Below, one piece after another: positions 16,172 through 47,420 of a stretch of 64,000 nucleotides of DNA. The DNA is from a virus. The DNA lies in the IMG/VR virus record IMGVR_UViG_3300039065_000016. The stretch is one strand, 5' to 3'. Position numbers and translations under genes: made by a program. The notes under the pieces are model-generated. The model was given only the letters and a program-made list of their open reading frames with translations. It had not been told where the DNA came from and ran no database searches. Every line of letters starts with the position of its first letter. The stretch's first letter is position 1.

Positions 16172-17608
16172 TTACTCCCCCTTCAGGTAACTGTCCAGCT
16201 CGGCGCACTGCGGAGCAGAACTGGCCGAATCCTGGGCTTTCGATTGACGGCTGGCCGCGCCACGAGCAGCTTCGACGCCTTTCAGGTACATGTCGAGCGC
16301 CAGAACTTCCTGGCCCTTCTCACAGCTGATCGCCAGCTTCTTCACGCCGTAAACAGCGACTTCAGCCGAGTCCATAGCTCGGTGGTCGAACGCACCAACC
16401 ACGGAACTAAGACGCTTGTAGAGGCGATCTTTAGCAGCAATGTCGCGATAGAGACCACGAATTGCAGCATCTTGCGCGTTCTTTTGTGCCATTTCAGGAA
16501 GTTCCTCGCTGTTATCCTTGCCCTCACCACCATCGTCGCTGGCGGTTTGCGCGCCGCAGAGGATGCTCTGTTCTTCCAAGCCCTCGACGACATCTTGACC
16601 TTCGCCATGTTCTTCGTCCGCCTCTTCGGCTACCGTGCCTTCCAGTCGAGCCAGAATGGCCTTGACCTGGGAGATCAGTTCGGCGACTTCGCCTTCACCG
16701 GACATTTCGGATGCGGCACCTTCTTGCTGTTCCGGCTCGACGGCGACCACGGCCGGATCGACAACGGACGGCGCTTCTTCGTGCTCTTCGTCGTCTTCCT
16801 GAGCGCCTTCCAGAGTCGGATGCTCGGTCATGTGCTCGCTGTCGGTCGGTTCGGCCGGAGCGGTTGCGCCTTCCTGATGCTCCGGCTCCTGCGCCTCTTC
16901 GCCCAGGAACTTCTGGACAGATGCAGAGAGCTTCGGCCACAGGGCGCGCAACTCTTCGACCGCCGAATCAGCAGCTTGTCCTGCGCGCTGGACAGGAGTC
17001 TTCTGCTTGGCTTTCTTGAGACCCATTTCATTACCCTCATCGGATGGTCTGAAATCAAAACTGAGATGGTCAAAGCACAGACCATCCAATACTCTGGCCC
17101 CCGGCACACGACCCTCTTTTACCAGGGCGATGTGGTTGCCGCGCATCTTGTCCTGGACGACTTCATAAGGCGTTCCATTCCAGATGCCGGGTTGCTCAGT
17201 GTAGCGGCAACTATAGCCTAGGGACAGATCTTCCTTGCCCCTTTCCAGCTGATTCTGCATGTTGCGGGAATAGATGCGGATATCGCCGCGAGCCCATGGA
17301 GCTTCGTAGTAGGCGTTGGCTGTGATGATGCCTTCCACGCCTTTGTCTTCGGGAGCCACGCCATCGTCATCGCCGTCGAATCCCGACAGCATTTCGTGCT
17401 CGTCGATCAGCGGGAGATTCTTCAGAGATTCGATGTACTCAGGATCGCTAACGGCAGACTCCGGACGATACACGTTGACAATCCGCATCGGATCGCCCGG
17501 AAGACCGAGTTGACCGGCAGAATATTGGAAAATGCCATAAGAGCTGATTGGACAGCCCTCGATGGTCATATATCCATTTTCGTCAATTTTTCTTTTCGAC
17601 TTTGCCAT
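16172..17608 (-). CDS. prohead scaffold / protease-like protein
   Basis: 478 aa. The N-terminal ~200 aa resemble DUF2213-type prohead proteins (from memory). A long E/D/A-rich acidic segment typical of scaffolds follows. Sits upstream of the capsid gene. Confidence 0.55.
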   Translation of the reverse strand: MAKSKRKIDENGYMTIEGCPISSYGIFQYSAGQLGLPGDPMRIVNVYRPESAVSDPEYIESLKNLPLIDEHEMLSGFDGDDDGVAPEDKGVEGIITANAYYEAPWARGDIRIYSRNMQNQLERGKEDLSLGYSCRYTEQPGIWNGTPYEVVQDKMRGNHIALVKEGRVPGARVLDGLCFDHLSFDFRPSDEGNEMGLKKAKQKTPVQRAGQAADSAVEELRALWPKLSASVQKFLGEEAQEPEHQEGATAPAEPTDSEHMTEHPTLEGAQEDDEEHEEAPSVVDPAVVAVEPEQQEGAASEMSGEGEVAELISQVKAILARLEGTVAEEADEEHGEGQDVVEGLEEQSILCGAQTASDDGGEGKDNSEELPEMAQKNAQDAAIRGLYRDIAAKDRLYKRLSSVVGAFDHRAMDSAEVAVYGVKKLAISCEKGQEVLALDMYLKGVEAARGAASRQSKAQDSASSAPQCAELDSYLKGE

Positions 17609-17640
17609 CGTTAATTCGAAGAGTCGTGGACTATGGCTGT

Positions 17641-17669
17641 ATTATATACGCAGGACATCTAAGGGTAAA
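17641..17669 (-). promoter_or_regulatory. sigma70-type promoter for the scaffold-capsid operon
   Basis: - strand TTTACC-17 nt-TATAAT (rc of 17664-17669 and 17641-17646), ~33 nt upstream of ATG 17608. The short leader has no obvious SD. Confidence 0.55.
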
Positions 17670-17896
17670 TAAGCGGAACAATAATTCGATGTAGCCGCGA
17701 CTGTTAATTTACACTAGAATCTGTATTGTGACCTAATTACCGGACTTCCTCAGCCGCGAAAACTGGTAAATTGGTTTCGGAAATTTGACGGGATTTGTCT
17801 AGGCCTACTGCCGCAAGACTTTCAATCTTTAAACTAATCCAAATTACCAATTTACCGATTAAAAATTGAATTTCAATGCGTATAGAGCATATCGAT

Positions 17897-17917
17897 TAAC
17901 GTTATATTATAACGTTA
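17897..17917. repeat. perfect 10-1-10 palindrome TAACGTTATA-t-TATAACGTTA
   Basis: Read directly. A third AACGTTA lies at 17939-17945. Copy B has only a half-site (GGTAACGTCC, 37550-37559). Confidence 0.95.
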
Positions 17918-18038
17918 CTTATAGATGAATTCTATTAGAACGTTATTCCTAATTTCCCATGCTATATACTTTTGCGGCATGCGGCGAAATCGGAAATTAG
18001 GAATTTAGCCTGTTAAAGCCTTGCGGCAGTAGGATTTC

Positions 18039-18072
18039 CAAATTACCGCTATTTCCCAGAAACGGTAATTTG
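18039..18072. repeat. 10-bp perfect inverted repeat CAAATTACCG-N14-CGGTAATTTG
   Basis: Arms at 18039-18048 and 18063-18072. Confidence 0.9.
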
Positions 18073-18099
18073 CGGCTATCCGGACCAGAATTTTTAGTC

Positions 18100-18113
18100 A
18101 GAATCCGGATTCT
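18100..18113. repeat. perfect 14-bp palindrome AGAATCCGGATTCT
   Basis: Read directly. A related AATCAGGATT lies at 18136-18145. Confidence 0.95.
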
Positions 18114-18257
18114 CGCGGCATCATCCGCCGAAAGCAATCAGGATTGAGACGCCGATGATGGCCAGATCAACTGCGGCAAACTTCAGGCTGAAGAATCCGC
18201 CGTTAATATTGGCCTTGATCACATCGGTCGCGAGTCGGCGTATGCATGTCTTTCGGT

Positions 18258-18483: not shown

Positions 18484-19320
18484 CTAAATGATCGGGATTT
18501 TTCTGCACCGGCAGTTAATCGCCCAACCTGGCGGTCCTTGGTCGGCCTTTGGACCTTCCCAAAGTCTAGGGTCATTCAGTTTGAATCTTTTCCCGTCCTT
18601 TTCCAGGTGGGTATGGCGAGGCGTCTTCCCTGCCGAAGAGTGCATCCATTCGAACTCTTCGACTCCATTCTCTGCCATTCTCTCATCACTCAACGAACTG
18701 TAAAGTTTACTGGTTTGATCTCTTGCGATGAGTTCGATTCGGTTTTCAGAAAACTTTCCGACTTCTCGAAGTGCATTTGTTATTCCAGAAGTTCCTTGTT
18801 CCTCTGGGTTTGGGGAAGTCAGAGACAACATTACAGATGTGTAAATTTTCTCGTGGACTTCCTCTTGAATGTTGGTGATGAGGGTATGGTTGTAAGTAGT
18901 CGCGGCTTCCAGGGTGTTCCTGACGCTCTCATTGTATGAAGCTCGCGGCTGATCGACGCCGGCCACCGACAGGCTGTGTAGAGTCGCAGCGGTCGCGGCT
19001 TCGTCGGCCCGATTGACGAACTCCGGGGCGATCTTGGCCGCGAAACCTTCAAAGATGCGATTCCATCGCTGCTGAAGGCTTCGCAGAGTCATCTTGAACA
19101 GGACGTTCACCGATTCGTCTTTCGCGAAAAACCGTTCTGCCGCAGGCTGGGATATGGCCTTCTCGATTTCACTTCGATAATCGGCGATCATGAGTCTGGC
19201 CATATCCTTCATTTGCTTTCGATACCAGGCTTCGATTCCAGCAGAAGGAATTATGGGCTTGCCTCTTCCGACTGGAAGAGGCCCCCGGCGTTCGCGTTTC
19301 TTGGAGGCTTTGAACGCCAT
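18484..19320 (-). CDS. head morphogenesis protein (SPP1 gp7 / Mu gpF family)
   Basis: C-terminal GPPGWAINCRCRKIPI matches the conserved CRC motif of this family. Start set to ATG 19320 (TGATG overlap with the portal stop). The track start 19365 is an alternative. Confidence 0.75.
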   Translation of the reverse strand: MAFKASKKRERRGPLPVGRGKPIIPSAGIEAWYRKQMKDMARLMIADYRSEIEKAISQPAAERFFAKDESVNVLFKMTLRSLQQRWNRIFEGFAAKIAPEFVNRADEAATAATLHSLSVAGVDQPRASYNESVRNTLEAATTYNHTLITNIQEEVHEKIYTSVMLSLTSPNPEEQGTSGITNALREVGKFSENRIELIARDQTSKLYSSLSDERMAENGVEEFEWMHSSAGKTPRHTHLEKDGKRFKLNDPRLWEGPKADQGPPGWAINCRCRKIPII

Positions 19321-21617
19321 CACTTGCCTCCAAATGGCTTCGTCGTGTCGCCATTTGCCAGCCAACGACGGAAGGCGGGCAGATCAACTTCATGGATGGA
19401 GCCGAGTCCATCCCAGCCCGGACGGAAGCAAGACAGATATCCAGACTTGGCGTCGTTAATGTTGTTGAAACCGAGCATGCACTTGTGCTCGTCGAATTGC
19501 CCATCTTTGTTCACCTGGTTGACGACGAAGACCCGTTTCGAACCAAGGTTCGGGCCTACGAAGCAATCGACCTCATCCCCATCAGCCCCCTTCGTACCTT
19601 TGATGAATCCATAGTGGTGCTTCATCTGGACTCGCCAGCTCCCGTCCTTCCCTTGCCGGATACTTCCGCGCGGATTTTCGATCAAGGTAGTAATTCCATT
19701 GACCTTGATCCTCTGGAGTTCAGAATGATCACGAGGGCCGACGATGCGGTTGGACGAAAACACCGAAGGCTCCATACCCGATACGCTCGGCTTTGACGTT
19801 CTCTTCAGACCTGGCGCGTCATCCTGCTCTATGTCCACGCCGTCCGGAGCCTGCGCGTCGTCCAGGGCTTCGAGTTTCGACAGTAGATCGGACAGCAGGT
19901 TCCGAAGCTCGGCCCTGGGGTTCGGCCGCGACGGCGGTGTAGCGGCCTCGCCGGCCCCTTCCTCGGCCGCTTTCGCGAGGGGCTTAGTACCGCGTGGAGC
20001 GGCCGGAACTGGGTCGCCTGCGCCTTCTACGGCGCCCGCTTGGGCTTCGGCTCGCTCGGCCTCGCCTTTCGCCTTCGCCGACTGTGCACCGGCCTTTTCG
20101 AGTTCGGCCAGGTTTTCCGGAGACATGCCCGGCTCGGTTTCGGCCTGATCGTCGGTGAGTCGATTATAGCCGGAGCGCGGATCATCACGCAGGCGCTCGC
20201 GGACTTCATCCGGAGACACGACGCCGGAATTGATATAAATTTCATCAGTAGCAGCCTTCTTGTTGTTCAGCTCGGCTTGTTGCTGGCTGGTTGTGGAATC
20301 CACAGGGTTCCAGACGATTTCCAGCTGTACATCGATTGCTTCCGATTTTGCCAGCAGCAAATAATGACGCTCAAGCAGCGGGTCGAATATATGCTCTTGA
20401 ATCGATTCCAACTCTTCGTGATAAGAAATCGTCTCGTGCTCACCAGTCGCGTTGAATCCTTTGGGAGAAGTGCCGAGTAGCTTCGTCGCAGGAGTCTTGG
20501 CGATGGCCGCAACCAGCTGATATTGGTTCATGATGACGCTGTCGAAATCGGACAGGTTCGTATCGAACTGCTCCATGGTTTCATCAATACCAATAACTTT
20601 CACGCCATGGTTGTCTCGATTGGCGATCCAGAACGCCAGACGGGCGTTGAAGGCATCCTCATTCGCGATGGCCTTTTCCACGTCAACGTGAATGGTGCTG
20701 GTTCGCTTCGACATCGCCAGCAACGGCGCTTCGTTCGCAGTTCGCTCGGCAGCATACACGCGCTCGTAAATGCGCTGGGTGAGCGGGATGCCTCCGAAAA
20801 TGTATGTCGGCTTCAGGATATCTGGCGGCTGCGGCCCACGAACGACCACCAGATGGCTGCGATGATACTTCTTCCCGCTGATGATCCAAAAATCGGGCTC
20901 ATAGAAGTGTTCGGCAGACGGGTCTGCCGTGGACTCTGCGGTCAGCTGAGGCATTGCCCAATATGGATCTATCTGGGAAATTCCCTTGTACGAGCCGGGC
21001 GCTATTCCGTCTGGGTTGAATGGCTTCTCATAGTAGTCCGGATCGTCAGACTCAACGACGAACAGAGCGATTCGAACGCCGAAGACGTTTTTGAATCGGT
21101 TCAATTCGACGAGGTTGTCTTTGACGCGAAACTCCATGTCGCGCCGAGCGATCAGCGCGCTTTGTTCATCAGACAGCTTCCGGCCATCCGATTTGAGTTC
21201 CCATCCGTTCCGCGCGGCGTCTTCGCCTGACATGGAGCAAGCTTTGTCGACCAACCAGTGTTGAGAAATGATGGCGCAAGCTTGGTATCCGATGAATCCT
21301 TGGGAGTTATACCAGTCCTGCAGCATGGTCGGAACTACATAGGGATTCTGGCCGCCAGCGGCAGCTTTCGCGGCTGGGGTGGGTCCGTCACCATACGCAC
21401 TGTCCATTGCGACGGATAGGCCCGGCTCCAGGAAATCCTTCACGCTACGGATGACCGGGGCTTTCTCCGGCTCGACATTCCAGCCGCGAATCTTCCCCAG
21501 CTTAATCATAGGGTCGAGCGGATCGTGTTGAGGGATTCGTGCGACTTTCTCCGGCGCCGATTCAGAACAGGCAACATTATCCTTTTTGCGCCCGAATATC
21601 CAGGAAAGTTTAAACAT
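19320..21617 (-). CDS. portal protein with C-terminal pyrophosphatase-like extension
   Basis: 765-aa first ORF of the late block, directly upstream of the Mu-F-like gene. The N-terminal ~500 aa are of portal size. A low-complexity A/E/P linker is followed by a ~125-aa domain (see findings). Confidence 0.7.
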   Translation of the reverse strand: MFKLSWIFGRKKDNVACSESAPEKVARIPQHDPLDPMIKLGKIRGWNVEPEKAPVIRSVKDFLEPGLSVAMDSAYGDGPTPAAKAAAGGQNPYVVPTMLQDWYNSQGFIGYQACAIISQHWLVDKACSMSGEDAARNGWELKSDGRKLSDEQSALIARRDMEFRVKDNLVELNRFKNVFGVRIALFVVESDDPDYYEKPFNPDGIAPGSYKGISQIDPYWAMPQLTAESTADPSAEHFYEPDFWIISGKKYHRSHLVVVRGPQPPDILKPTYIFGGIPLTQRIYERVYAAERTANEAPLLAMSKRTSTIHVDVEKAIANEDAFNARLAFWIANRDNHGVKVIGIDETMEQFDTNLSDFDSVIMNQYQLVAAIAKTPATKLLGTSPKGFNATGEHETISYHEELESIQEHIFDPLLERHYLLLAKSEAIDVQLEIVWNPVDSTTSQQQAELNNKKAATDEIYINSGVVSPDEVRERLRDDPRSGYNRLTDDQAETEPGMSPENLAELEKAGAQSAKAKGEAERAEAQAGAVEGAGDPVPAAPRGTKPLAKAAEEGAGEAATPPSRPNPRAELRNLLSDLLSKLEALDDAQAPDGVDIEQDDAPGLKRTSKPSVSGMEPSVFSSNRIVGPRDHSELQRIKVNGITTLIENPRGSIRQGKDGSWRVQMKHHYGFIKGTKGADGDEVDCFVGPNLGSKRVFVVNQVNKDGQFDEHKCMLGFNNINDAKSGYLSCFRPGWDGLGSIHEVDLPAFRRWLANGDTTKPFGGK

Positions 21618-25407: not shown

Positions 25408-25845
25408 ATGAAGAAATTCTGTATCGACATCACCAATGGTCTGGCCGGCTTCATCATCTGGGGCGGCGCCATCATCCTGGCGGCTTCCGTCTTCCTCATC
25501 GGTCCGCTGGCCATCCTTCTGACCGGAGCCTGGGTCGTCTGCACGGCCGTAGTGTTCGCACTCTGGTTCGCCGTCGCCGGCATCTACGAAGAGTCGCAAA
25601 AGCAGACCGAGTATTTGAAATCCATAGCGTCTATCCAGGCACGCGAGCGCGGCGCCGGCTTTGGTCCAGAAGACGCCGGGCCCAGCGCCAGCGCCCCGGC
25701 GAATCCGGTAGAGCACAAACTCAGTCATCCCAAGCTGAAGCCTGGCGCGCAATTGGTCTCTGCAGTCGTGTTCTTCGCAGTTCTCATCGTTGTCCTGGCC
25801 GCAGGCGATTGGATCTGGAGCTATTTCCAGGCTCTTCCGAAATAG
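25408..25845 (+). CDS. integral membrane protein (145 aa, 3-4 TM helices)
   Basis: ATG 25408 follows AAGGA. The track start 25387 is TTG and sits inside the previous stop. Confidence 0.65.
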   Translation: MKKFCIDITNGLAGFIIWGGAIILAASVFLIGPLAILLTGAWVVCTAVVFALWFAVAGIYEESQKQTEYLKSIASIQARERGAGFGPEDAGPSASAPANPVEHKLSHPKLKPGAQLVSAVVFFAVLIVVLAAGDWIWSYFQALPK

Positions 25846-25858
25846 TGGAAGAAAATGC

Positions 25859-25887
25859 TTTACTTCCATTCTGGATGAAGGCAGAAT
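25859..25887 (+). promoter_or_regulatory. early promoter/leader cassette
   Basis: TGCTTTACT (TTTACT 25859-25864)-17 nt-CAGAAT. Exact leader 16-mer CATCGAAACGCGAAAC at 25893-25908. Confidence 0.55.
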
Positions 25888-25930
25888 AGCTCCATCGAAA
25901 CGCGAAACCTTCAGACAAAAGGAACCGACC

Positions 25931-28177: not shown

Positions 28178-29560
28178 TTAGAAGTCGAAGAAACCTTTGG
28201 GCTTCCTGATCGGCAGAATGGCCGACATGATCACCGAATCAGCGATGTTCGGCGACTTGATCTTACGCTTCTCGCGCATATCCTTCTTGGACTCGACTTT
28301 GAATCGGCCGTTCATATCCAAGTCTTTGCGCGGCGAGGAAAGCTCGATACATAGCTGATTTAGTTTGTCCGGGTGAATTGTTTCAGAGTTGATCGAAATC
28401 AATTCGTCGAATGGATAAACCTTTCCATGGACAACCGCCTCGTAAGTCTTCCGGAATCTTGTCGCGACTTCTTCCCACTTTTGCGCCTTGATGTTGCTAA
28501 AGTGATCTTTGTTCTTGATCGTAGTGTGCGGCAGCTTCATGTAAATATCATCAGGCTTATCTACAGCGCCGCCCGCGTTGAATGGATCATAGGTCAGTTT
28601 GAAGTCTGGGCTGGAGTCATTCAATTCGGCGAACTTAGACCCGACGTGAGCGCCGACGCCGATGGAGTCATAAGTGACCGAGGCGCCTTTCATCTTTGCC
28701 AGATTGTAAACGCGACTGGACGACTTGAGCAACTCATCTTCCAGACCATCCCATTCGTCCACTTCCATGATGACGTTGCCGTGCATGAGAGTCGTGGCGT
28801 TCGCATCCTCGCCGTCATCCGCAACGTCGAAGCCGATGCGCTTCGACCCGGCCGGCTCCCAGCCGAGTTTTTTGTGGGCATCAATGGCAGCAAGGATGAA
28901 CTTGAGGTTGATGACGGATTTGTCGCCGCCCGTCTTCGGAATCCCTCCATATATGTGCTCGGCCTGGTCCTTGTCGCGCTCATAAGCTTCGTGGATGACC
29001 TTGAGCATCGTCTCACTGAGAAACGGATTTTCGTTCCAGTTGATCATCTTGACGAAGGCGTCTTTGGGTGGCTTCACCACGAAGTTCTGATACACGAAGT
29101 CTGTTACTTCGTTCGGGTTGAAGATGATCCAGATTTCTGAGTTCTCTTTCCGAATGGTCGGCTCAATGACTTCCCACTGTTCCTGGGTAAGGTAGTGAGC
29201 TTCCTCAAGCCAGAGAATGTCAATGCCTTCGGTGGACTTGATTTCCGACAGGTTACGGGCGATCCCATAGAATAAGAATTCTGATCCTGTCCTCTTGTGC
29301 TTGATCGAGTTCTTCGTGAAAATGAACTCGCCGTTGTACTCAGAATTCTCAATCTTGTCCTTGATCAACGTGTAGACCGATTCGCTGATGCGGTTCTGAA
29401 ACTGGCGAGCACAGAGGAACTTGAGTCTATAGTTGGCCGCGAGGTAAACGGCGATACCGCCTGCGTCGTGTGACTTCGAAGACGCCCGGCCGCCATAAAT
29501 GACTTTGTAACGGGCGCGAGTTCGCCAGACCGCTCGCAGTGCAGGGTTGAGTTTGTACAT
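28178..29560 (-). CDS. terL: terminase large subunit
   Basis: Walker A-like YGGRASSKSHD, Walker B-like IDILWLEEAH and a C-terminal nuclease-sized domain. Start set to ATG 29560 (MYKLNPALR). The track start 29623 is non-ATG. Confidence 0.8.
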   Translation of the reverse strand: MYKLNPALRAVWRTRARYKVIYGGRASSKSHDAGGIAVYLAANYRLKFLCARQFQNRISESVYTLIKDKIENSEYNGEFIFTKNSIKHKRTGSEFLFYGIARNLSEIKSTEGIDILWLEEAHYLTQEQWEVIEPTIRKENSEIWIIFNPNEVTDFVYQNFVVKPPKDAFVKMINWNENPFLSETMLKVIHEAYERDKDQAEHIYGGIPKTGGDKSVINLKFILAAIDAHKKLGWEPAGSKRIGFDVADDGEDANATTLMHGNVIMEVDEWDGLEDELLKSSSRVYNLAKMKGASVTYDSIGVGAHVGSKFAELNDSSPDFKLTYDPFNAGGAVDKPDDIYMKLPHTTIKNKDHFSNIKAQKWEEVATRFRKTYEAVVHGKVYPFDELISINSETIHPDKLNQLCIELSSPRKDLDMNGRFKVESKKDMREKRKIKSPNIADSVIMSAILPIRKPKGFFDF

Positions 29561-29625
29561 TCTAATCAATCCGGTGTCAGCAATAGGTCGAGTATATCGA
29601 CGCCGCAACAGACGGTCGAGCACAA

Positions 29626-29636: not shown

Positions 29637-29662
29637 TGAACATAATTTTATTGTTAATACAC

Positions 29663-29691
29663 TTTACTTCCATTCTGACCAACGGCATAAT
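29663..29691 (+). promoter_or_regulatory. early promoter/leader cassette
   Basis: TTTACT-17 nt-CATAAT with the spacer TCCATTCTG shared with the cassettes at 25859 and 29994. Leader variant CAGCGAAACGAAAG. Confidence 0.6.
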
Positions 29692-29759
29692 CTCTTCAGC
29701 GAAACGAAAGACTGTTTGTCCGTAATGATGCTAGCTATAACAATCCAAAGGAGATTCCC

Positions 29760-29948: not shown

Positions 29949-29993
29949 CGAACAGACCGCTCGTCCACTTTGAGAAATATTTCACAATTCTGC

Positions 29994-30022
29994 TTTACTT
30001 CCATTCTGAATAGCGTCATAAT
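29994..30022 (+). promoter_or_regulatory. early promoter/leader cassette (best consensus copy)
   Basis: TGCTTTACT-17 nt-CATAAT. Exact leader CATCGAAACGCGAAAC at 30028-30043, then CCAAAACAGAGGAACGCAGAAATG. Confidence 0.65.
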
Positions 30023-30067
30023 CTCTTCATCGAAACGCGAAACACTCCAAAACAGAGGAACGCAGAA

Positions 30068-31684: not shown

Positions 31685-31699
31685 TTCTCTCAAAAGTGC

Positions 31700-31728
31700 T
31701 TTACTCGATGAGGTGTCTGAGGTATAGT
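31700..31728 (+). promoter_or_regulatory. early promoter embedded in a 12-bp inverted repeat
   Basis: TTTACT-17 nt-TATAGT. CTCGATGAGGTG (31704-31715) and CACCTCATCGAG (31729-31740) are perfect reverse complements. Confidence 0.65.
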
Positions 31729-31763
31729 CACCTCATCGAGTGAATAAACCAAAGAGGTGTGAG

Positions 31764-31949: not shown

Positions 31950-32004
31950 CCAAATCGTCCGGCTTCCTGACCTTACAGAATATCAAATAATTTCGCAGAA
32001 GTGC

Positions 32005-32033
32005 TTTACTCGATGAGGCGACTTAGATATAGT
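32005..32033 (+). promoter_or_regulatory. early promoter embedded in an inverted repeat (second copy)
   Basis: TTTACT-17 nt-TATAGT. TCGATGAGGCG (32010-32020) pairs with CACCTCATCGA (32034-32044) with 1 mismatch. Leader CATCGAAACGCGAAC. Confidence 0.65.
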
Positions 32034-32073
32034 CACCTCATCGAAACGCGAACGTCCAAAAGAGGATTGTGAA

Positions 32074-36413: not shown

Positions 36414-36992
36414 TTATGTCTGAATGGGGTTGGCGCGGTCTTCCTCGGTCGGCTCCGGCGTCGGGGACGGGAAATCGCCCTCTTCGCCGTCCTGCACATA
36501 GCCATTGGCTTCGGCCGCAGCAGCGACGGTGGCGGTCTGAGCCTCGGCTTCTGATGCGTAGAAGTCGGCCAATCCGCGACCTACCCTGGTCTTACCAGAC
36601 TCGTCAACGAACGTGATTTCGGCCAGAACGTTCAATTCCTTGATGGCCGACAGACGGCTGGAGTCCTTGACGGTGGGATCACGAACCATCTGGAGAAGTT
36701 CGTGAAGCGCCGTCTTTGGATTCCATAGATCGGACGTTCTGGTCGCATTCAGCTTGGCTTTGAATTGCTTGCGATAGTACGGGTTGGACTCCATCGCGAA
36801 GATGCGGGCCTGGGCCGGGCCATCCATGTGCTCTTCGCCCCAGATCGCTCTGAAGACCCGCCAGGAGCTATAGCCTTGAACGCGCAGGTCGATGTACAGA
36901 TCGAAACGCTTCTGGTTGATCGCCGCGAACTGCGGATCAGCGAATTCCTGTGGCGTGACTAAATCGTCGGGGCTGTAATATTTGGCGGTCAT
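36414..36992 (-). CDS. terS: putative terminase small subunit
   Basis: 192 aa. N-terminal FDLYIDLRVQGYSSWRVFRAIWG...ARIFAMESNPYYRKQF looks like the HTH region of Terminase_2-type small subunits. DSSRLSAIKELNVLAEI resembles their oligomerisation helix. Acidic tail. Call rests on pattern recognition only. Confidence 0.45.
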   Translation of the reverse strand: MTAKYYSPDDLVTPQEFADPQFAAINQKRFDLYIDLRVQGYSSWRVFRAIWGEEHMDGPAQARIFAMESNPYYRKQFKAKLNATRTSDLWNPKTALHELLQMVRDPTVKDSSRLSAIKELNVLAEITFVDESGKTRVGRGLADFYASEAEAQTATVAAAAEANGYVQDGEEGDFPSPTPEPTEEDRANPIQT

Positions 36993-37170
36993 TTGTTGCT
37001 GCGTCCCTGGAGTTCGATTCTTGGACCGTCGCGGTGGCTGGGTAGGTGGCTGGGACCTGGTGCTTGCCGCGACACTGAGTATGGCGCGATTGTACTATGG
37101 GGCCAGGGAGCGCGTCTATGGGCTGCTTGTGGGTGGCCTGTAGGTCTGGGTGGGTTTGATGGTGAATGAG

Positions 37171-37200
37171 TGTTAGGTGGTGTTATAGGATGTTATATGG
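37171..37200 (+). repeat. three TGTTA repeats at exact 10-nt phasing
   Basis: tgttaggtgg tgttatagga tgttatatgg. Further TGTTA copies at 37272 and 37284. Confidence 0.9.
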
Positions 37201-37444
37201 GCGGTCTGCTGGCGGGTGAGGGTCGGATTGGTGGGTGGCGGGCGATGGTGGCGGTGAGTGTTTGGATTGAATGTTAAATCGGATGTTAGGAATATGTCCA
37301 GGTGAGCGATTCTGCCCTGTGACCAAATTTCCGGTTCCGCTCGTCGAGTTTTGGCCCCTGCCGCTTAGTCCGCCGTGGTGTTGCCGCTGCCCATGGTTTG
37401 GAAGGACGGAAGTTTCCGGCGACCCTGCCGCGAGTTGAGTGGAA

Positions 37445-37727
37445 TCGGAAACTCGACGGGTAGTGTACCGGCTTAGTGCCGCGAGGCTTTCAAAGACTAA
37501 ACTATTCCAAATTACCAAATTACCATTAATTTTATTAATTTTAAAGATAGGTAACGTCCGTGATAGATTTTTTCTATTAGGATTGTGCAATCGATTTTCG
37601 CTGTAGAATAGTTTTAAACCATGCTCGAAAAACCGGGAATTAGGGAATATGGCCGCAAACCCGCGCGGCAGTAGGCCTCCCATCTTCCCAGTCAGAATAG
37701 CAATCCAGGAATTTGCGGCTATTTCCA
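37445..37727. repeat. AT-rich non-coding module, copy B
   Basis: Colinear with 17777-18081. Block spacings agree within 1-3 nt, apart from a 26-nt palindrome-bearing insertion in copy A. Confidence 0.85.
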
Positions 37728-37904
37728 CACAAAAATCCACCTCAAACCCACAATTTCTCAACATTTCACGCAAAATCCAACCATCATACACTCCAGACCA
37801 ATACCGAAATCTATTAACTTCCCATAATACGCCATCGCCACGCCAACCTAATTCCCACATAGCTTTCAAGCCTCACCCGTTCACAAGCTAAATTAATGTT
37901 CTCC

Positions 37905-37936
37905 GCGACAAAGAAAAGACCGCCCGAAGGCGGCCT
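37905..37936 (-). terminator. intrinsic terminator after the helicase gene
   Basis: - strand reads ccgcc-ttcg-ggcgg followed by tcttttctttg. Lies 26 nt after the stop at 37962. Confidence 0.6.
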
Positions 37937-37961
37937 AATCCACTCCAACTCAATCGACCTA

Positions 37962-39701
37962 TCAGAAATCCTCGCCCAATATCTTGGCTCGCTCTGCCCG
38001 TACTGCTCGAATTTTTGCCATGGCAGCCTCATCGGTCATATCCGGATCGCCCTTTCTCAACAGATACACCAGCGCATCATTGAATGGCGGCAGCGTCGTC
38101 TGCATATTCTTCGACCAGTCAGGCGCGACCTTATCCACAGGCAGGCACCATCCATTCAGGCCGTTCTTATTCGGAATGAATCCCAGCGCTTTCAGGTGTG
38201 GAGTTAAATGGCGAGAAATCGGCTTCTTCCTGGCGAGAATATCGAACCACTTCAGAATGGAAACGGTGTCTGCCCTCCACCCAGGAGTCTTGGAATTCCC
38301 ACCAGGCTTAACCTCTTCGAACTCACAACTGATCAGGACATTGATCAGATACATATCAATCGTATCGTCGCGAACCACGCCGCGCGCATTCTCCATTTCC
38401 GAAATAGAGAAGTTCTGGACTTCGCGGTTTGCTTCCGACACCATATTCAGGTAGCCATCGACGCCGTGCTCTTCGATCCATGCGCGGCATTCAGCCATCG
38501 CTTGCCAGAATTTGCGGCCGAAGTCGGTGAAGTCCACCTTGAACGGTTCATTGCCATCGCCCGGCTTAACCCAGTTCGGCTTTCCATCCTCATCGGGCAG
38601 TTGCGCAACAAACATAGGATAGAAACGTCGGTTACCAGAGTCGTCCCGCTGGAGTCCATCGTAGCCGTTGCCGTCCATGATGGTGATCCATTGTCGCTTG
38701 ATCGTTTCGCCCGGCTCAAACTTCTGGTCGAATGTATCAGAAGACCGCACCAAGAACTCCTTGATGCGTTCCATGTCGCCCTTTTTGAAGCCGGACATTT
38801 CCCCGACGTTCGCAATGACCGAGTTGCCGGTGATGTTGCGCAGGAATGGTGTCTGGTCGTGTCGGCTCAGGTCGAGCTGGACGGGAGCCAGATCGCGACC
38901 GCCCGACAGTTCCTTGCAGATCAGCAGGCCGAAATAGGATTTCCCCGCATCCTGCCCACCAATCAACGCCAGCGAGATCGGCGCCGAGATTCCAGGATAG
39001 TTGATGCGGCAGTACAGGCTCAGCCAGAAATACTTGCTCACCATCCGGTTCAATTCGGTGTCGAATGGCTTAAAAAGATCGATCAGCAACGTGCTAATTC
39101 GCTCTTCGCCGTCCCACTCCGGTATCTTCTTCTCGAACGTCTCTATCAGCGAGTTGCGGCGGTATCGACGCGCCCAAACGCAGCAAGTCTCAATCGTCTT
39201 CTTAATCGAGGGATCGTCCAAGGCCGCAGCCGCGAGGGCGCCCATCAGGTCAATCGGGTCGAGGGTCTTGTTGTTGAACGCCACGCCGCGATGGTCCACC
39301 AGCCGTCCGCGAAACTCGTCGAAGTGCGGATGCGGGACGGTTCCATCACCCTTGCAGAACAAAGTATCGTACACCGCGAGATAGTTGCTGTCGGAAGTCG
39401 AGCTGTATTTAGTGATGAAGTCATCGAACGGCCCTTTCACCACCCGGCTGACCGGAAGATCGAACGCCTGGTCGAGCATCAACAATCGCGCTCGCTTTCT
39501 CAAGTCTGGTTCCGCATACGCCTCGGCGTATCTTGCCGCCTTTTGTGCGCGGTGCGTTTCGTTCCTCGCAATCGCATCATCGGCCGCCTTGCTCGCGGCG
39601 GTCATCAAAGGGTCCATTCCAGCATCTTCTATCTGTGTGAGATCGAACTCACTGGACCCTGATTCGTCATCATCAAAAATATTATCTTCGTCGATAATCA
39701 T
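37962..39701 (-). CDS. VirE/VapE-type primase-associated replicative helicase (P-loop NTPase)
   Basis: 579 aa. Walker A LIGGQDAGKSYF. Overall layout resembles VapE/P4-alpha C-terminal helicases from memory. Adjacent to the primase gene. Confidence 0.6.
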   Translation of the reverse strand: MIIDEDNIFDDDESGSSEFDLTQIEDAGMDPLMTAASKAADDAIARNETHRAQKAARYAEAYAEPDLRKRARLLMLDQAFDLPVSRVVKGPFDDFITKYSSTSDSNYLAVYDTLFCKGDGTVPHPHFDEFRGRLVDHRGVAFNNKTLDPIDLMGALAAAALDDPSIKKTIETCCVWARRYRRNSLIETFEKKIPEWDGEERISTLLIDLFKPFDTELNRMVSKYFWLSLYCRINYPGISAPISLALIGGQDAGKSYFGLLICKELSGGRDLAPVQLDLSRHDQTPFLRNITGNSVIANVGEMSGFKKGDMERIKEFLVRSSDTFDQKFEPGETIKRQWITIMDGNGYDGLQRDDSGNRRFYPMFVAQLPDEDGKPNWVKPGDGNEPFKVDFTDFGRKFWQAMAECRAWIEEHGVDGYLNMVSEANREVQNFSISEMENARGVVRDDTIDMYLINVLISCEFEEVKPGGNSKTPGWRADTVSILKWFDILARKKPISRHLTPHLKALGFIPNKNGLNGWCLPVDKVAPDWSKNMQTTLPPFNDALVYLLRKGDPDMTDEAAMAKIRAVRAERAKILGEDF

Positions 39702-45334: not shown

Positions 45335-46225
45335 ATGGAACAGAAGGACCAGAACGAACAGACCCAAGGCGAAGAGCTGACCAAGGAACAAGCAGCTACC
45401 CTGCGCAAGGCCGAGAAGGCCGCTGAGCGCCAACGTAAAGAGCGCGAGCGCGCCGAGAAGGCCGAGGCCAAGGCCAAGGAAGCCGAGCAGAAGAAAGCCG
45501 AGCGCGAAGAGAAGCGCAAGGCCGAGCGCGAGAAGAAGGAAGCCGAGCGCGCCGAGAAGGCGAAGGAAAAGGCCGCCGCCAAGGAAGCCGAGCGTGCTGA
45601 AAAGGCCAAGGCCAAGGAAGCTGAGCAGGCCGAGAAGGCCAAGGCGAAGGAAGCCGAGCGCGAGCAGAAGAAGGCCGAGAAGGAAGCCGAGCGCGCCAGG
45701 AAGGCCGAAGAGAAGAAAGCCGCGCAGGAAGCCCAGAAAGCAGCCCGCGAAGAAGAGCGCAAGCGCCTGGCCGAAGAGAAGAAGGCAGAGCGCGAAGCCG
45801 AGAAGAAGCGTCGCAAGGAAGAGCAGGAAGAGCGCCGCGCGAAGGCAGAAGCCCGTCGCGAAGACCTGAAGTCCAATGGTTCGCGCCGTCCGCGTGCCAC
45901 CCACTTCATCCCGACCGGCGACGGTCATGGAACCCCGCAGGCCTTCTCGACTCGCGGCAAGGTGTTCGCTTACATCAACGAGCACTGCACCGTTGGTGAG
46001 CCGGTCGAAATCGAATCCTTCGGCGAGAAGGTGGCCCACTTGCTGTACGGCACCTCGGTTCGCAGCTACCTGAGCAAGCTGGAAATCATGGGCTGGGTCG
46101 ATCTGGTTGCCATCGCTTCGAAGGAAGACGAAGCTGGCCAGGGCGATGACGAGAAGGCCGATGAAGGCCAGGAGCACGACGGTGAAGGTCAGGGCGCCGA
46201 CGGTTCCGATGGTGAAGAAGAGTAA
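45335..46225 (+). CDS. E/R/K/A-rich single-helix protein with C-terminal winged-helix-like domain and acidic tail (296 aa)
   Basis: Track ORF. GGAG SD. Residues ~20-190 are almost only A/E/K/R/Q. C-terminal ...VRSYLSKLEIMGWVDLV... is followed by a D/E/G tail. Confidence 0.7.
   Translation: MEQKDQNEQTQGEELTKEQAATLRKAEKAAERQRKERERAEKAEAKAKEAEQKKAEREEKRKAEREKKEAERAEKAKEKAAAKEAERAEKAKAKEAEQAEKAKAKEAEREQKKAEKEAERARKAEEKKAAQEAQKAAREEERKRLAEEKKAEREAEKKRRKEEQEERRAKAEARREDLKSNGSRRPRATHFIPTGDGHGTPQAFSTRGKVFAYINEHCTVGEPVEIESFGEKVAHLLYGTSVRSYLSKLEIMGWVDLVAIASKEDEAGQGDDEKADEGQEHDGEGQGADGSDGEEE
45400..45870 (+). repeat. low-complexity codon repeats (GCC GAG / AAG GCC / GAA GCC ...)
   Basis: Reiterated aaggccgag / gaagccgagcg units are visible throughout the segment. 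Confidence 0.8.
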
Positions 46226-46329: not shown

Positions 46330-47331
46330 ATGATTCCTGATCACAAAGTTATCATCGTGGGAGCCGGACTCGCCGGCCTGATCGCCGCGCATCGTTTCCC
46401 TCAAGCCCAAATCATCGACGCGGCGACGCCGACGAGCAAGGAACGCCACAACGCGCTCTTGCGGTTCCGCTCACCAGTCATCGGCCAACTCACCGGCATC
46501 CCGTTCCGCGAAGTCACCGTACACAAGGCCATCTACATTGACGGCGAGTTCGTTTCCCAGCCGCGCATCGACTACTGCAACATGTACTCCAGGAAAGTAA
46601 CGGGCGGCCTGTCGGATCGGTCCATCTGGAATATGGCGACCGAAAAGCGTTGGATCGCGCCGGCAGACTACTATGAGCAGCTGGTCGCTAAGCTAGCGAA
46701 TCGCATCAGCTGGGGCAGGCCTTTCGACGCCTCTTTCTTCCAGTTCCTTCGCCGGCAAGATGATCACGTTAATATCATCAGCACAGCACCATTCCGCGCC
46801 AATCTGGCTGCGGCAGGGCTGGACCTGGGGATCGACCCGTCATTCGGCGAAGGAACCTCCATCGTCGTGAGTCGGTACAAGCTTTCCATTCCTTGTGATG
46901 TCTTCCAGACGGTGTATTTCCCTGGTCCCGAAGTGGGAACGTTTCGAGCGTCCATCACCGGCGACACCCTTATCGTCGAATCCGTTACTAAGGGCATCGT
47001 GGAGACTGCGGCTGGTGAAATCGAAACCATCGAATGGGACAGCAACTGGGACCTGGATGAAGTTTGCTCGGCCTTCGGCATCAGGAAGAAGAATCTCATT
47101 CCGGACGGCGAGCCGACCGTCCAGACCAAGGGTAAAATCATTCCGCTCGGCCGCGACGAGCGCGAATCCATGATCTGGAATCTCACCCATGAAGCCGGCA
47201 TCTTCTCGCTCGGTCGGTTCGCGACCTGGCGAAACGTCCTTCTGGACGATCTGGTTTCGGACATGGACGTCATCGAGCGCCTGATGACTTCTTCGTCTTA
47301 TCAGAAGGCCAAGAAGATGTTCGTGAAATAA
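46330..47331 (+). CDS. FAD/NAD(P)-binding flavoprotein, GLF/UDP-galactopyranose-mutase-like
   Basis: N-terminal KVIIVGAGLAGLIAAHRF (GxGxxG Rossmann motif). C-terminal FSLGRFATWRNVLLDDLVSD resembles the GR-x-G/A-x-Y/W-x-Y-x-x-M-D motif of GLF-type enzymes. Confidence 0.55.
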   Translation: MIPDHKVIIVGAGLAGLIAAHRFPQAQIIDAATPTSKERHNALLRFRSPVIGQLTGIPFREVTVHKAIYIDGEFVSQPRIDYCNMYSRKVTGGLSDRSIWNMATEKRWIAPADYYEQLVAKLANRISWGRPFDASFFQFLRRQDDHVNIISTAPFRANLAAAGLDLGIDPSFGEGTSIVVSRYKLSIPCDVFQTVYFPGPEVGTFRASITGDTLIVESVTKGIVETAAGEIETIEWDSNWDLDEVCSAFGIRKKNLIPDGEPTVQTKGKIIPLGRDERESMIWNLTHEAGIFSLGRFATWRNVLLDDLVSDMDVIERLMTSSSYQKAKKMFVK

Positions 47332-47345
47332 TTTACACAAAGTGC

Positions 47346-47374
47346 TTTACTTCTGAGCCAGGTGAGAGTAGTAT
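47346..47374 (+). promoter_or_regulatory. early promoter/leader cassette
   Basis: TGCTTTACT-17 nt-TAGTAT. Exact leader CATCGAAACGCGAAAC at 47380-47395. Confidence 0.6.
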
Positions 47375-47420
47375 TCCCTCATCGAAACGCGAAACCCTTC
47401 AACCAAAAGGAATCGACAAA

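What the first reader, a model, noticed from the sequence alone, without database searches (positions are those of the whole stretch)
36993..37961. 970-nt gene-free island upstream of putative terS with mirror-image GT-rich / CA-rich arms and helically phased TGTTA repeats
Seen directly, the island has four parts.
(i) 37100-37300 is strongly G+T-rich on the + strand. It carries TGTTA at 37171, 37181 and 37191 (exact 10-nt phasing, one helical turn) and again at 37272 and 37284. It also has (T/C)GGATTG words (37224, 37263), GGCGATGG, and five GGG runs between 37199 and 37242.
(ii) 37300-37445 is a GC-rich core.
(iii) 37445-37727 is the AT-rich module copy B.
(iv) 37730-37900 is C+A-rich, and its reverse complement reads like arm (i). 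The rc of 37736-37750 is TGGGTTTGAGGTGGA, against TGGGTTTGATGGTGA at 37151-37165. The rc of 37771-37800 is TGGTCTGGAGTGTATGATGGTTGGATTTTG, against TAGGTCTGGGTGGGTTTGATGGTG at 37141-37164.
The island is therefore a large imperfect inverted repeat with short iterons, flanking an AT-rich centre.
Inference: that layout is expected for a replication origin or a packaging-recognition (pac/cos) region next to terS. The G-runs could also form G-quadruplexes on the + strand. Nothing here codes convincingly.
Basis: partly seen in the sequence, partly recalled or inferred. Interest (0 to 1): 0.7.

Follow-up and report, generated by a model that had tools for sequence, protein, structure and literature searches.

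The report
Phage packaging start site beside terS
The gene-free island is the DNA-packaging start (pac) region plus the promoters and leader of the small-terminase gene of a PB1-like Pseudomonas phage, a site already mapped in close relatives, although its conserved internal layout and a second copy elsewhere in the genome have not been described.

Summary
The window is a Pbunavirus (PB1-like Pseudomonas aeruginosa myophage), reverse-complemented relative to GenBank records. The island 36993-37961 is real and non-coding. It lies between a VapE-like primase/helicase gene and a gene 96% identical to the solved E217 small terminase (PDB 7UXE).

In JG024, long reads pile up at 59,376, which maps to window 37593 (AT^CGAT). 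At least eight GenBank Pbunavirus records begin at 37592/37593 and read toward terS. Relatives with direct terminal repeats (MTx, WFC, Kyle) have their physical left end 357-377 nt upstream of the terS homologue.

The cut sits in a ~110-nt almost invariant AT-rich core. Two sigma70 start sites mapped in phage 14-1 (P040, P041) fall in the island.

The "large imperfect inverted repeat" is not supported: the arms mirror each other in composition only (p~0.13). The TGTTA phasing is real and invariant. The G-runs are not conserved.

Apparently undescribed:
- Direct GCGGC boxes start ~100-130 nt after the end in all four lineages.
- Mirror G+T/C+A composition is kept in MTx.
- A second copy of the cut-spanning module lies upstream of the head-protease gene.

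An origin role is untested. TerS binding to these elements is inferred only.

The parts
37962..39701 (-). VapE-like primase/helicase gene (14-1 gp75 homologue). It forms the upstream boundary of the island.
   Evidence: phrog_4630 'DNA primase' with E=0, and PF05272 VapE-like domain.
37917..37936 (-). Rho-independent terminator of the primase gene.
   Evidence: 8-bp stem with 6 GC pairs plus a T-run. A terminator is annotated at the same place in LBL3 and CEB_DP1.
37730..37900 (.). Arm (iv). It is C+A-rich on the + strand, so G+T-rich on the gene-sense strand. Its sequence is hypervariable but its composition is conserved.
   Evidence: G 6% / C 35%. Mean pairwise identity over 37616-37900 is 0.70, with at least 3 allelic types. 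MTx has a similar G+T-rich arm after its primase terminator.
37657..37677 (+). Right arm of the 21-nt inverted repeat. It carries an inverted GCGGCA box at 37665-37670.
   Evidence: I1. The box is invariant and the arm scores 0.87 identity, while its flanks score 0.64-0.65.
37505..37614 (.). Near-invariant AT-rich core that contains the terminase cut.
   Evidence: Mean pairwise identity 0.967, with 89% of columns invariant across 17 Pbunavirus sequences. terS third codon positions score 0.87.
37590..37595 (-). ATCGAT. This is the inferred packaging-series initiation cut (first packaged base 37593 or 37592). Packaging runs toward lower coordinates.
   Evidence: The JG024 long-read start pile-up at 59,376 +/-5 and an extra ~15-kb XbaI band map here. 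Records 109, PB10, fHoPae01, PaP1_EPu-2019 and SIIA-P1 start here, as do Ab28, PA8P1 and BrSP1. Essoh 2015 reports fixed-end reads.
37501..37529 (-). Distal sigma70 promoter, homologous to 14-1 P040 (-35 TTAATG, -10 AATAGT). The inferred TSS is 37489. The spacer holds two tandem GGTAATTTGG words (37507-37524).
   Evidence: 14-1 TSS at 59399(+), with TU045 reaching through gp76, aligned to the window. The word CCWAATWWCC occurs 8 times in the window, all in modules A and B, against 0.61 expected.
37470..37490 (-). Left arm of the inverted repeat. It carries GCGGCA box 1 (37477-37482).
37359..37431 (-). GCGGCA boxes 2-4 (37426-37431, 37382-37387, 37359-37364).
   Evidence: All three are invariant. 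Boxes in the same orientation and at similar distances occur in the MTx, WFC and Kyle leaders.
37140..37300 (-). Arm (i). It is C+A-rich and G-poor on the sense strand. It holds the invariant phased TAACA x3 (37171-37195) and x2 (37272-37276, 37284-37288), and a variable C-rich tract (37205-37260).
   Evidence: As RNA or ssDNA it is unstructured.
37089..37118 (-). Proximal sigma70 promoter, homologous to 14-1 P041 (TAGACG N18 TACAAT). The inferred TSS is 37081, giving an 89-nt 5' UTR.
   Evidence: scan. 14-1 TSS at 59807(+) with TU046.
36414..36992 (-). terS (small terminase).
   Evidence: 96% identical to PDB 7UXE 'Small terminase', E=2.8e-121. The E217 TerS decamer is described in the review PMC9611059.
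17740..18090 (.). Module copy A. It is a paralogue of the cut-spanning module and lies between the small ORFs that follow the Mu-F-like gene and the head-protease gene.
   Evidence: 75% identity to copy B. It has its own inverted repeat, with one compensatory change in relatives. Paralogous internal modules exist in MTx (63% over 324 columns) and, by shared words, in WFC.

Best explanation
The island is the packaging-initiation (pac) region of a headful-packaging Pbunavirus, fused to the promoter and leader region of its small-terminase gene.

Shown, in close relatives:
- Virion DNA is circularly permuted.
- One class of molecules begins at a fixed nucleotide, which maps to AT^CGAT at window 37592/37593.
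- The molecules read toward terS.
- Two sigma70 transcription starts lie in the island and both give terS mRNAs.

Shown here:
- The cut lies in a ~110-nt almost invariant AT-rich core, bracketed by a conserved 21-nt inverted repeat.
- Downstream lie an array of same-orientation GCGGCA boxes, a C-rich/G-poor tract with invariant helically phased TAACA repeats, the proximal promoter, and then terS.
- The same order (end, ~100 nt AT-rich, GCGGC boxes, C-rich tract, promoter, terS) is found at the physical left end of distant relatives with direct terminal repeats.

Inferred mechanism:
1. The TerS decamer, possibly with a host DNA-bending protein, recognises the repeated boxes and words on the concatemer.
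2. TerS positions TerL to cut in the easily melted AT-rich core.
3. Packaging then proceeds unidirectionally through terS, and later cuts are headful.
For: - Identity of the phage: 283-285 Pbunavirus records match at 80-98%.
- terS: PDB 7UXE. terL is at 28178-29623.
- JG024: 36 of 161 reads longer than 30 kb start at 59,376 +/-5. Coverage dips upstream of that point, and an extra ~15-kb XbaI fragment fits a pac fragment. That position aligns to window 37593.
- Eight GenBank records from several laboratories start at 37592/37593 oriented toward terS.
- Essoh 2015 saw reads with a single fixed end and no DTR in Ab27-29.
- Guo 2019 placed a PhageTerm pac site in an AT-rich region of SCUT-S1.
- In MTx, WFC and Kyle the terS homologue is the first gene, 357-377 nt from the left end; for MTx this end is the left boundary of a DTR annotated as predicted by PhageTerm.
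- GCGGC boxes: 15 sense against 0 antisense across four leaders, with 1.35 expected in shuffles. The first box lies at +102 to +128.
- Conservation: the core scores 0.967, the TAACA block 1.0, and the boxes 0.969 against 0.904 for their surroundings. terS third codon positions score 0.87.
- Promoters P040 and P041 and transcription units TU045 and TU046 in 14-1.
Against: - No reads or virion DNA of this particular phage were available, so the cut is placed by homology. The core is about 99% identical.
- Some record starts may have been copied from earlier records rather than derived from reads.
- The Banzai study found no significant PhageTerm peak. The JG024 authors themselves ask for Southern confirmation.
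- E217 TerS showed no appreciable DNA binding in vitro, so the proposed role of the boxes and repeats is untested.
- The TAACA block lies about 400 nt from the cut and 92-114 nt upstream of the P041 start. It could instead be a transcription-factor site.
Confidence: 0.8

Rival explanations
1. The island is, or also contains, the phage replication origin. On this view the AT-rich centre is the unwinding element, the CCWAATWWCC words and GCGGCA boxes are initiator iterons, and the adjacent VapE-like helicase-primase and RepB-like primase act on them. Copy A would be a second origin or a cis-acting replication region, like P4 ori/crr.
For: - The island lies directly downstream of the primase/helicase genes.
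- The AT-rich centre is flanked by repeated words found nowhere else in the window and by an inverted repeat.
- Two copies exist.
- Guo 2019 raised the same possibility for the AT-rich pac region.
Against: - There are no replication data.
- The genome-scale cumulative GC-skew minima lie at about 43.1 and 52.9 kb of the window, not here. The Banzai study places its candidate origins at its own two GC-skew minima, inside the replication-gene region; I did not map those coordinates to the window.
- The strand running 5'->3' away from the centre is C-rich, the opposite of the usual leading-strand G excess.
- The arms form no hairpins of the ssi type used by RepB' primases.
- In DTR relatives the homologous position is a physical genome end, which packaging explains directly.
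Confidence: 0.15
2. The island is only a transcriptional control region for terS, made of two promoters, activator sites and a long leader with Rho-dependent attenuation. On this view the fixed read ends are a preparation artefact, or a nick or fragile site in AT-rich DNA, rather than a terminase cut.
For: - Two mapped sigma70 starts with a ~500-nt and an ~89-nt leader.
- The C-rich/G-poor unstructured leader resembles a rut site.
- The phased TAACA repeats lie 92-114 nt upstream of the P041 start.
- Module copy A also precedes a late operon (protease, scaffold, capsid), next to promoter P014.
Against: - The same nucleotide was found with different sequencing chemistries and by different laboratories.
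- A matching restriction fragment was seen.
- The position is homologous to the physical ends of the DTR relatives.
- The transcription functions are real, but they do not exclude pac. Both probably coexist.
Confidence: 0.07
3. The two modules are copies of a small non-autonomous mobile element with terminal inverted repeats. On this view it inserted twice and has no function of its own.
For: Two copies of roughly 300 nt, each with 19-21-nt terminal-like inverted repeats.
Against: - Both copies occur at the same syntenic sites in essentially all 283 Pbunavirus records.
- Paralogous pairs exist at the same two sites in MTx, with a different sequence.
- Module B's core is more conserved than coding DNA.
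- I did not look for target-site duplications or for further copies in other genomes.
Confidence: 0.03

Closest known systems
Putative pac site of Pbunavirus JG024, Ab27-29 and SCUT-S1 (Ipoutcha 2024 PMC10913387; Essoh 2015 PMC4482731; Guo 2019 PMC6521218)
   Same: It is the orthologous locus. JG024 59,376 aligns to window 37593 within a core that is about 99% identical. Both are circularly permuted headful genomes.
   Different: Those papers give only a coordinate, or the phrase 'an AT-rich region'. None describes the inverted repeat, the GCGGCA boxes, the phased TAACA repeats, the mirror arms or the second module. SCUT-S1's site could not be located from its record.
Bacillus phage SPP1 pac (pacL-pacC-pacR) and P1 pac
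   Same: A headful series-initiation cut in a central segment, flanked by repeated recognition elements on both sides, and located at or next to the small-terminase gene (from established knowledge and review PMC9611059).
   Different: There is no sequence similarity. Here the elements spread over about 500 bp. The cut is outside terS. TerS binding has not been demonstrated, and E217 TerS bound DNA poorly in vitro.
Lambda cos (cosN-cosB with R sites, then Nu1)
   Same: The order is the same: cut site, then an array of same-orientation repeated boxes, then the small-terminase gene. Packaging proceeds through that gene (established knowledge).
   Different: Lambda makes staggered nicks that give cohesive ends at every genome unit. 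Pbunavirus uses the site only to start a headful series.
Left end (left boundary of the direct terminal repeat) of Myosmarvirus MTx and left record ends of Wifcevirus WFC and Kylevirus Kyle
   Same: Homologous terS (39-42% identity) is the first gene, 357-377 nt from the end. The layout is shared: ~100 nt AT-rich, then 2-4 sense GCGGC boxes from +102 to +128, then a C-rich tract and a sigma70 promoter. MTx also has the G+T-rich arm after the primase terminator and an internal paralogue of the junction.
   Different: MTx (DTR predicted by PhageTerm, per its annotation) and, as inferred from a duplicated terS match in their records, WFC and Kyle package unit genomes with fixed ends and multi-kilobase terminal repeats. 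The lineage-specific words differ: CCAAATTACC in Pbunavirus, GTAACCCAATATAGA in MTx, GATGATACG in WFC.
T4 gene 16 / gene 19 pac-like pair ('twin-ring pac synapsis' model of Black)
   Same: Two related sequences several kilobases apart in one genome, proposed to be bound together by small-terminase rings (review PMC9611059). E217 TerS has a C-terminal helix proposed to stack rings.
   Different: This is purely an analogy. No data link module A to TerS, and T4 has no unique pac cut.

Membership tests
pac site of a headful-packaging phage | A class of virion DNA molecules starts at one fixed position and in one direction. | tested here: met
   Tested through relatives only. JG024 long reads map to 37593. 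Eight record starts fall at 37592/37593. Essoh 2015 reports fixed-end reads. No reads of this phage were available.
pac site of a headful-packaging phage | The genome is circularly permuted and terminally redundant, and restriction digests show a sub-stoichiometric pac fragment. | not testable with these tools
   Literature on relatives only. JG024 gives a circular restriction map plus an extra ~15-kb XbaI band. Banzai and R26 are reported as permuted. Ceyssens 2009 claimed fixed ends, as cited.
pac site of a headful-packaging phage | The site is recognised by the small terminase. | not testable with these tools
   E217 TerS showed no appreciable DNA binding in vitro. The candidate elements (GCGGCA boxes, TAACA repeats, CCWAATWWCC words) are inferred from conservation and enrichment.
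pac site of a headful-packaging phage | The site lies in or next to the terminase genes. | tested here: met
   The cut is 601 nt upstream of the terS ATG. terL is 6.8 kb further on.
Iteron-type replication origin | An AT-rich unwinding element next to repeated initiator-binding words. | tested here: inconclusive
   An AT-rich centre (26-37% GC) and exclusive repeated words are present. The same features are expected of a pac site.
Iteron-type replication origin | Genome-scale strand-composition switch, or a marker-frequency peak, at the site. | tested here: not met
   Cumulative GC-skew minima lie at about 43,150 and 52,935, not at 37.5 kb. Marker frequency could not be tested.
RSF1010-type oriV (RepB' primase with ssiA/ssiB) | Hairpin-forming single-strand initiation signals on opposite strands. 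| tested here: not met
   Both strands of both arms fold at only -1 to -4 kcal/mol as DNA, with z-scores between -0.3 and +0.6.
Structured non-coding RNA or riboswitch in the terS leader | Thermodynamically unusual or covarying structure, or a match to an Rfam family. | tested here: not met
   RNA fold z-scores are -0.85 and -0.30. There is no Rfam hit even at E<=1. By eye, most relatives in the alignment carry a G-to-A change in the 5' arm of the 10-nt stem 37342-37351/37449-37458; I could not confirm that the partner arm is unchanged, so covariation was not properly tested.
Protein-coding gene (F8 ORF075 / JG024 gp77 / E217_00077) | A conserved reading frame with excess variation at third codon positions. 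| tested here: not met
   Variable sites by codon position are 85/84/82. The open frame ranges from 72 to 235 aa and shifts between genomes. 14-1, LBL3 and others leave it unannotated.

The most novel reading that the evidence does not exclude
Terminase recognition in this phage clade may be a two-site system.

The evidence:
- The cut-spanning module (inverted repeat, AT-rich centre and lineage-specific words) exists twice per genome: once at the pac or terminal site, and once about 20 kb downstream in front of the head-protease/scaffold/capsid operon.
- The pair is kept in Pbunavirus and Myosmarvirus. In Wifcevirus it is indicated by shared words.
- The sequence of both copies changes together between lineages.

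That pattern suggests one lineage-specific DNA-binding protein, most simply the TerS ring, binds both. This could serve pac synapsis or concatemer gauging, as proposed for T4, or it could couple packaging initiation to head-gene expression.

The conserved mirror G+T/C+A arms would then give the cut a built-in polarity.
Probability: 0.2. Interest if true: 0.6.

Novelty: already known. Interest (0 to 1): 0.33.

Why it matters
Pbunaviruses are among the most used therapeutic phages against Pseudomonas aeruginosa, and they are being rebuilt synthetically.

- Knowing exactly where packaging starts, and in which direction, matters for genome design. It also matters for judging the risk of generalized transduction and for interpreting sequencing coverage.
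- The location itself is already in the literature for close relatives.
- This analysis adds a testable parts list: the invariant core, the inverted repeat, the GCGGC boxes, the phased TAACA repeats, the mirror arms and a second module. It also shows that the same architecture marks the physical ends of distant relatives with direct terminal repeats.
- That gives a concrete DNA substrate for the unresolved question of what the structurally solved E217 small terminase recognises.

Tried and rejected
- Large inverted repeat between the arms: local and global alignment against dinucleotide shuffles was not significant.
- ORF075 as a gene: rejected on codon-position and frame tests.
- G-quadruplex: the G-runs lie in the most variable tract, which carries indels.
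- Structured RNA: fold z-scores are near zero, and there are no Rfam hits at the gathering threshold or at E<=1.
- tRNA or tmRNA: none found.
- ssi-type hairpins: none found.
- Genome-scale GC skew as an origin marker: the extrema lie elsewhere.
- Chi-like end protection as the reason for the G+T-rich arms: there is only one Chi-like octamer in the island (GCTGGCGG at 37208; GCTGGTGG in most relatives). The 17 such sites in the window are spread evenly. The idea is left as unsupported.
- IMG/VR scan with TerS: only 4 loci returned, so GenBank records were used instead.
- The E217 terminase paper (PMC10026623) is not held.
- The published version of the ONT-cappable-seq paper has no held supplements, so the bioRxiv version was used.
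- The SCUT-S1 record does not start at its reported pac site, so that report could not be placed on the map.
- AlphaFold model of TerS (pLDDT 72.8): it was not taken to a fold search because the PDB sequence match was already decisive.
Full report
**What the window is.**
- The island and its flanks match 283-285 GenBank records of Pbunavirus (PB1-like Pseudomonas aeruginosa myophages) at 80-98% identity.
- The window is the reverse complement of the usual GenBank orientation, so the genes around the island are on the minus strand.
- The gap 36993-37961 lies between a VapE-like primase/helicase gene and a 192-aa gene. The primase/helicase gene is 37962-39701(-) (phrog_4630, PF05272). The 192-aa gene is 36414-36992(-).
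- That 192-aa gene has no Pfam hit, but it is 96% identical (E=2.8e-121) to PDB 7UXE 'Small terminase', the E217 TerS decamer.
- terL is 28178-29623(-), 6.8 kb further along, with opposite-strand genes in between.

**Checking the observation.**
- Every literal statement about words and positions is correct.
- The three TGTTA at exact 10-nt spacing are unique in the window, with none expected in shuffles.
- The composition of the arms is extreme: G 45% / C 10% against G 6% / C 35%.
- The AT-rich module has a second copy at about 17740-18090, 75% identical.
- The arms are not similar in sequence beyond what their composition gives: score 24 against 20.1 +/- 3.0, p~0.13.
- The genuine inverted repeat is a 21-nt pair, 37470-37490 / 37657-37677, around the AT-rich centre. 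Its paralogue in copy A is 17804-17822 / 18015-18033.
- The 228-aa ORF that several records annotate here (F8 ORF075, JG024 gp77, E217_00077) is not a gene. In a 17-genome alignment its variable sites fall 85/84/82 over the three codon positions. The figures are 18/9/63 in terS and 52/30/136 in the primase gene. The open frame also ranges from 72 to 235 aa.

**Transcription.**
- ONT-cappable-seq of phage 14-1 (Putzeys et al., bioRxiv 10.1101/2023.10.13.562163, Tables S3 and S5) reports two sigma70-type start sites in the orthologous gap.
- P040 (59399+) gives a 1227-nt unit through gp76 (terS). P041 (59807+) gives a 920-nt unit.
- Aligned to the window, P040 is at 37501-37529 with its start at 37489. 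That is inside the AT-rich module.
- P041 is TAGACG-N18-TACAAT at 37089-37118 with its start at 37081. The consensus scan also found it.
- The left half of the island, about 37489 to 36993, is therefore a transcribed terS leader.
- In this phage the P040 -10 element is AATAGT rather than TATACT, so its strength here is inferred.
- The leader shows no unusual RNA structure (z = -0.85 and -0.30) and no Rfam match.

**Packaging.**
- Ipoutcha et al. 2024 (PMC10913387) found that 36 of 161 JG024 nanopore reads longer than 30 kb start at 59,376 +/-5. They also saw a coverage dip at 50-60 kb and an extra ~15-kb XbaI band that fits a pac fragment. They concluded that the genome is circularly permuted and packaged by the headful.
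- In alignment A2 that position is window 37593, in ATCGAT at 37590-37595.
- Five GenBank records that I fetched (109, PB10, fHoPae01, PaP1_EPu-2019, SIIA-P1) begin at window 37593 or 37592 and read toward terS. Ab28, PA8P1 and BrSP1 do the same.
- Of the 283 records, 32 fail to span the island. Only 4 fail to span copy A.
- Essoh et al. 2015 reported reads with a single fixed end and no DTR for Ab27-29.
- Guo et al. [quoted passage not shown] I could not place that site, because the record starts elsewhere.
- Contrary or weaker data exist. Banzai gave no significant PhageTerm peak. Ceyssens 2009 claimed fixed ends (cited).
- The cut is thus experimentally indicated in close relatives and placed here by homology.

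**Conservation.**
- The 17-genome alignment shows that 37505-37614 has mean pairwise identity 0.967, with 89% of columns invariant. terS third codon positions score 0.87.
- About 20 nt upstream of the cut (37616) conservation collapses to about 0.70, with at least three divergent allelic types.
- Within that variable stretch the right inverted-repeat arm (0.87) and its GCGGCA box (1.0) stand out against flanks of 0.64-0.65.
- All five TGTTA/TAACA pentamers are invariant.
It has a 39-nt tandem duplication in E217 and a 12-nt deletion in F8.

**Repeated elements.**
- CCWAATWWCC occurs 8 times in the 64-kb window, against 0.61 expected. All eight are in modules A and B.
- GCGGCA occurs five times in sense orientation downstream of the cut (+112, +163, +207, +230, +524) and once inverted upstream.
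- The two densest 600-nt windows for GCGGCA in the whole sequence are the two modules.

**Distant relatives.**
- TerS homologues at about 39-42% identity occur in Myosmarvirus, Wifcevirus, Kylevirus and others.
- In MTx (DTR predicted by PhageTerm), WFC and Kyle the homologue is the first gene, 357-377 nt from the left end.
- Their leaders share the Pbunavirus order. About 100 nt of 73-83% A+T come first. Then come 2-4 GCGGC boxes, all in sense orientation, starting at +102 to +128. A C-rich/G-poor tract follows, then a sigma70 promoter, then terS.
- Across the four lineages there are 15 sense boxes and none antisense, against 1.35 expected in shuffles.
- MTx also has, after its primase terminator, a G+T-rich arm (G 38%, T 40%, C 11%) like arm (iv).
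Its cause is unexplained.

**The second module.**
- In MTx the gap upstream of the head-protease gene (16658-17013) is a collinear paralogue of the concatemer junction. That junction is the last ~140 nt before the repeat plus the first ~115 nt of the genome. The match is 63% over 324 columns, and the local score is 50 against 21 +/- 2.6 in shuffles.
- WFC's equivalent gap shares GATGATACG words with its left-end leader.
- This is the same arrangement as Pbunavirus copies A and B.
- The words differ between lineages but agree within a genome. That points to one lineage-specific DNA-binding protein acting at both sites.
- In copy A the inverted repeat shows one compensatory change among five genomes.
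- None of the records I checked individually starts in copy A. No start site was reported at the position paralogous to P040, but P014 lies about 200 nt downstream.

**Interpretation.**
- The best-supported reading is a pac region fused to the terS control region (confidence 0.8 for the site).
- It is inference that TerS reads the GCGGCA boxes, the words or the phased TAACA repeats. E217 TerS bound DNA poorly in vitro. The TAACA block could equally be an activator site 92-114 nt upstream of the P041 start.
- An additional origin function is not excluded, but it has no positive evidence beyond layout. It also fails the two indirect tests available.
- A Chi-like end-protection role for the G+T-rich arms was considered and found unsupported.

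**Novelty and score.**
- The pac location next to terS is already published for close relatives, so the finding as stated is 'already known'.
- As far as the searched literature shows, the following appear undescribed: the conserved architecture across genera, the mirror arms, and the duplicated cut-spanning module. They justify a modest interest score.

Noticed in passing
window 17740-18090 (within the gap 17609-18120): This is a second copy of the cut-spanning module, 75% identical, with its own 19-nt inverted repeat and four CCWAATWWCC words. It lies upstream of the head-protease gene. Paralogous internal modules exist in Serratia phage MTx and, by shared words, in E. coli phage WFC. Its function is unknown.
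   Followed up: partly
window 37616 (boundary), 37616-37960: Conservation changes sharply about 20 nt upstream of the cut. The sequence is near-invariant downstream. Upstream there are at least three very divergent allelic types, which nevertheless keep the G+T-rich composition and the inverted-repeat arm.
   Followed up: partly
window 37205-37260: The C-rich tract is an indel hotspot. E217 and one IMG/VR genome carry a 39-nt tandem duplication. F8, KPP22M2 and WP1 carry a 12-nt deletion. PBJ duplicates 16 nt of the P041 -10 region (about 37095).
   Followed up: no
window 37208-37215: A Chi-like octamer is present: GCTGGCGG here, and the canonical E. coli Chi GCTGGTGG in most relatives. It is oriented so that RecBCD entering at the pac end would meet it. 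It is a single site and is not enriched.
   Followed up: partly
window 25839-25908, 29643-29712, 29974-30043, 47326-47395: A four-copy repeat, GCTTTACTTCC...ATAAT...CATCGAAACGCGAAAC. It matches the strong early sigma70 promoters P001, P006 and P028 mapped in phage 14-1.
   Followed up: partly
window 31688-31739 and 31993-32044: Two 88%-identical 52-nt elements with a promoter-like CTTTACT...TATAGT and an embedded hairpin (GATGAGGTG...CACCTCATC).
   Followed up: no
window 19320-21617 (-): The portal protein carries a C-terminal inorganic-pyrophosphatase-like domain (PF18823).
   Followed up: no
window 45435-45760: A long imperfect coding repeat rich in Glu, Lys and Ala (33-nt period).
   Followed up: no
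L033 2901-3095 (MTx 68400-68594): The MTx annotated ORF gp103 lies mostly in the G+T-rich arm between the primase terminator and the genome end. It is probably spurious, like ORF075 in Pbunavirus records.
   Followed up: no
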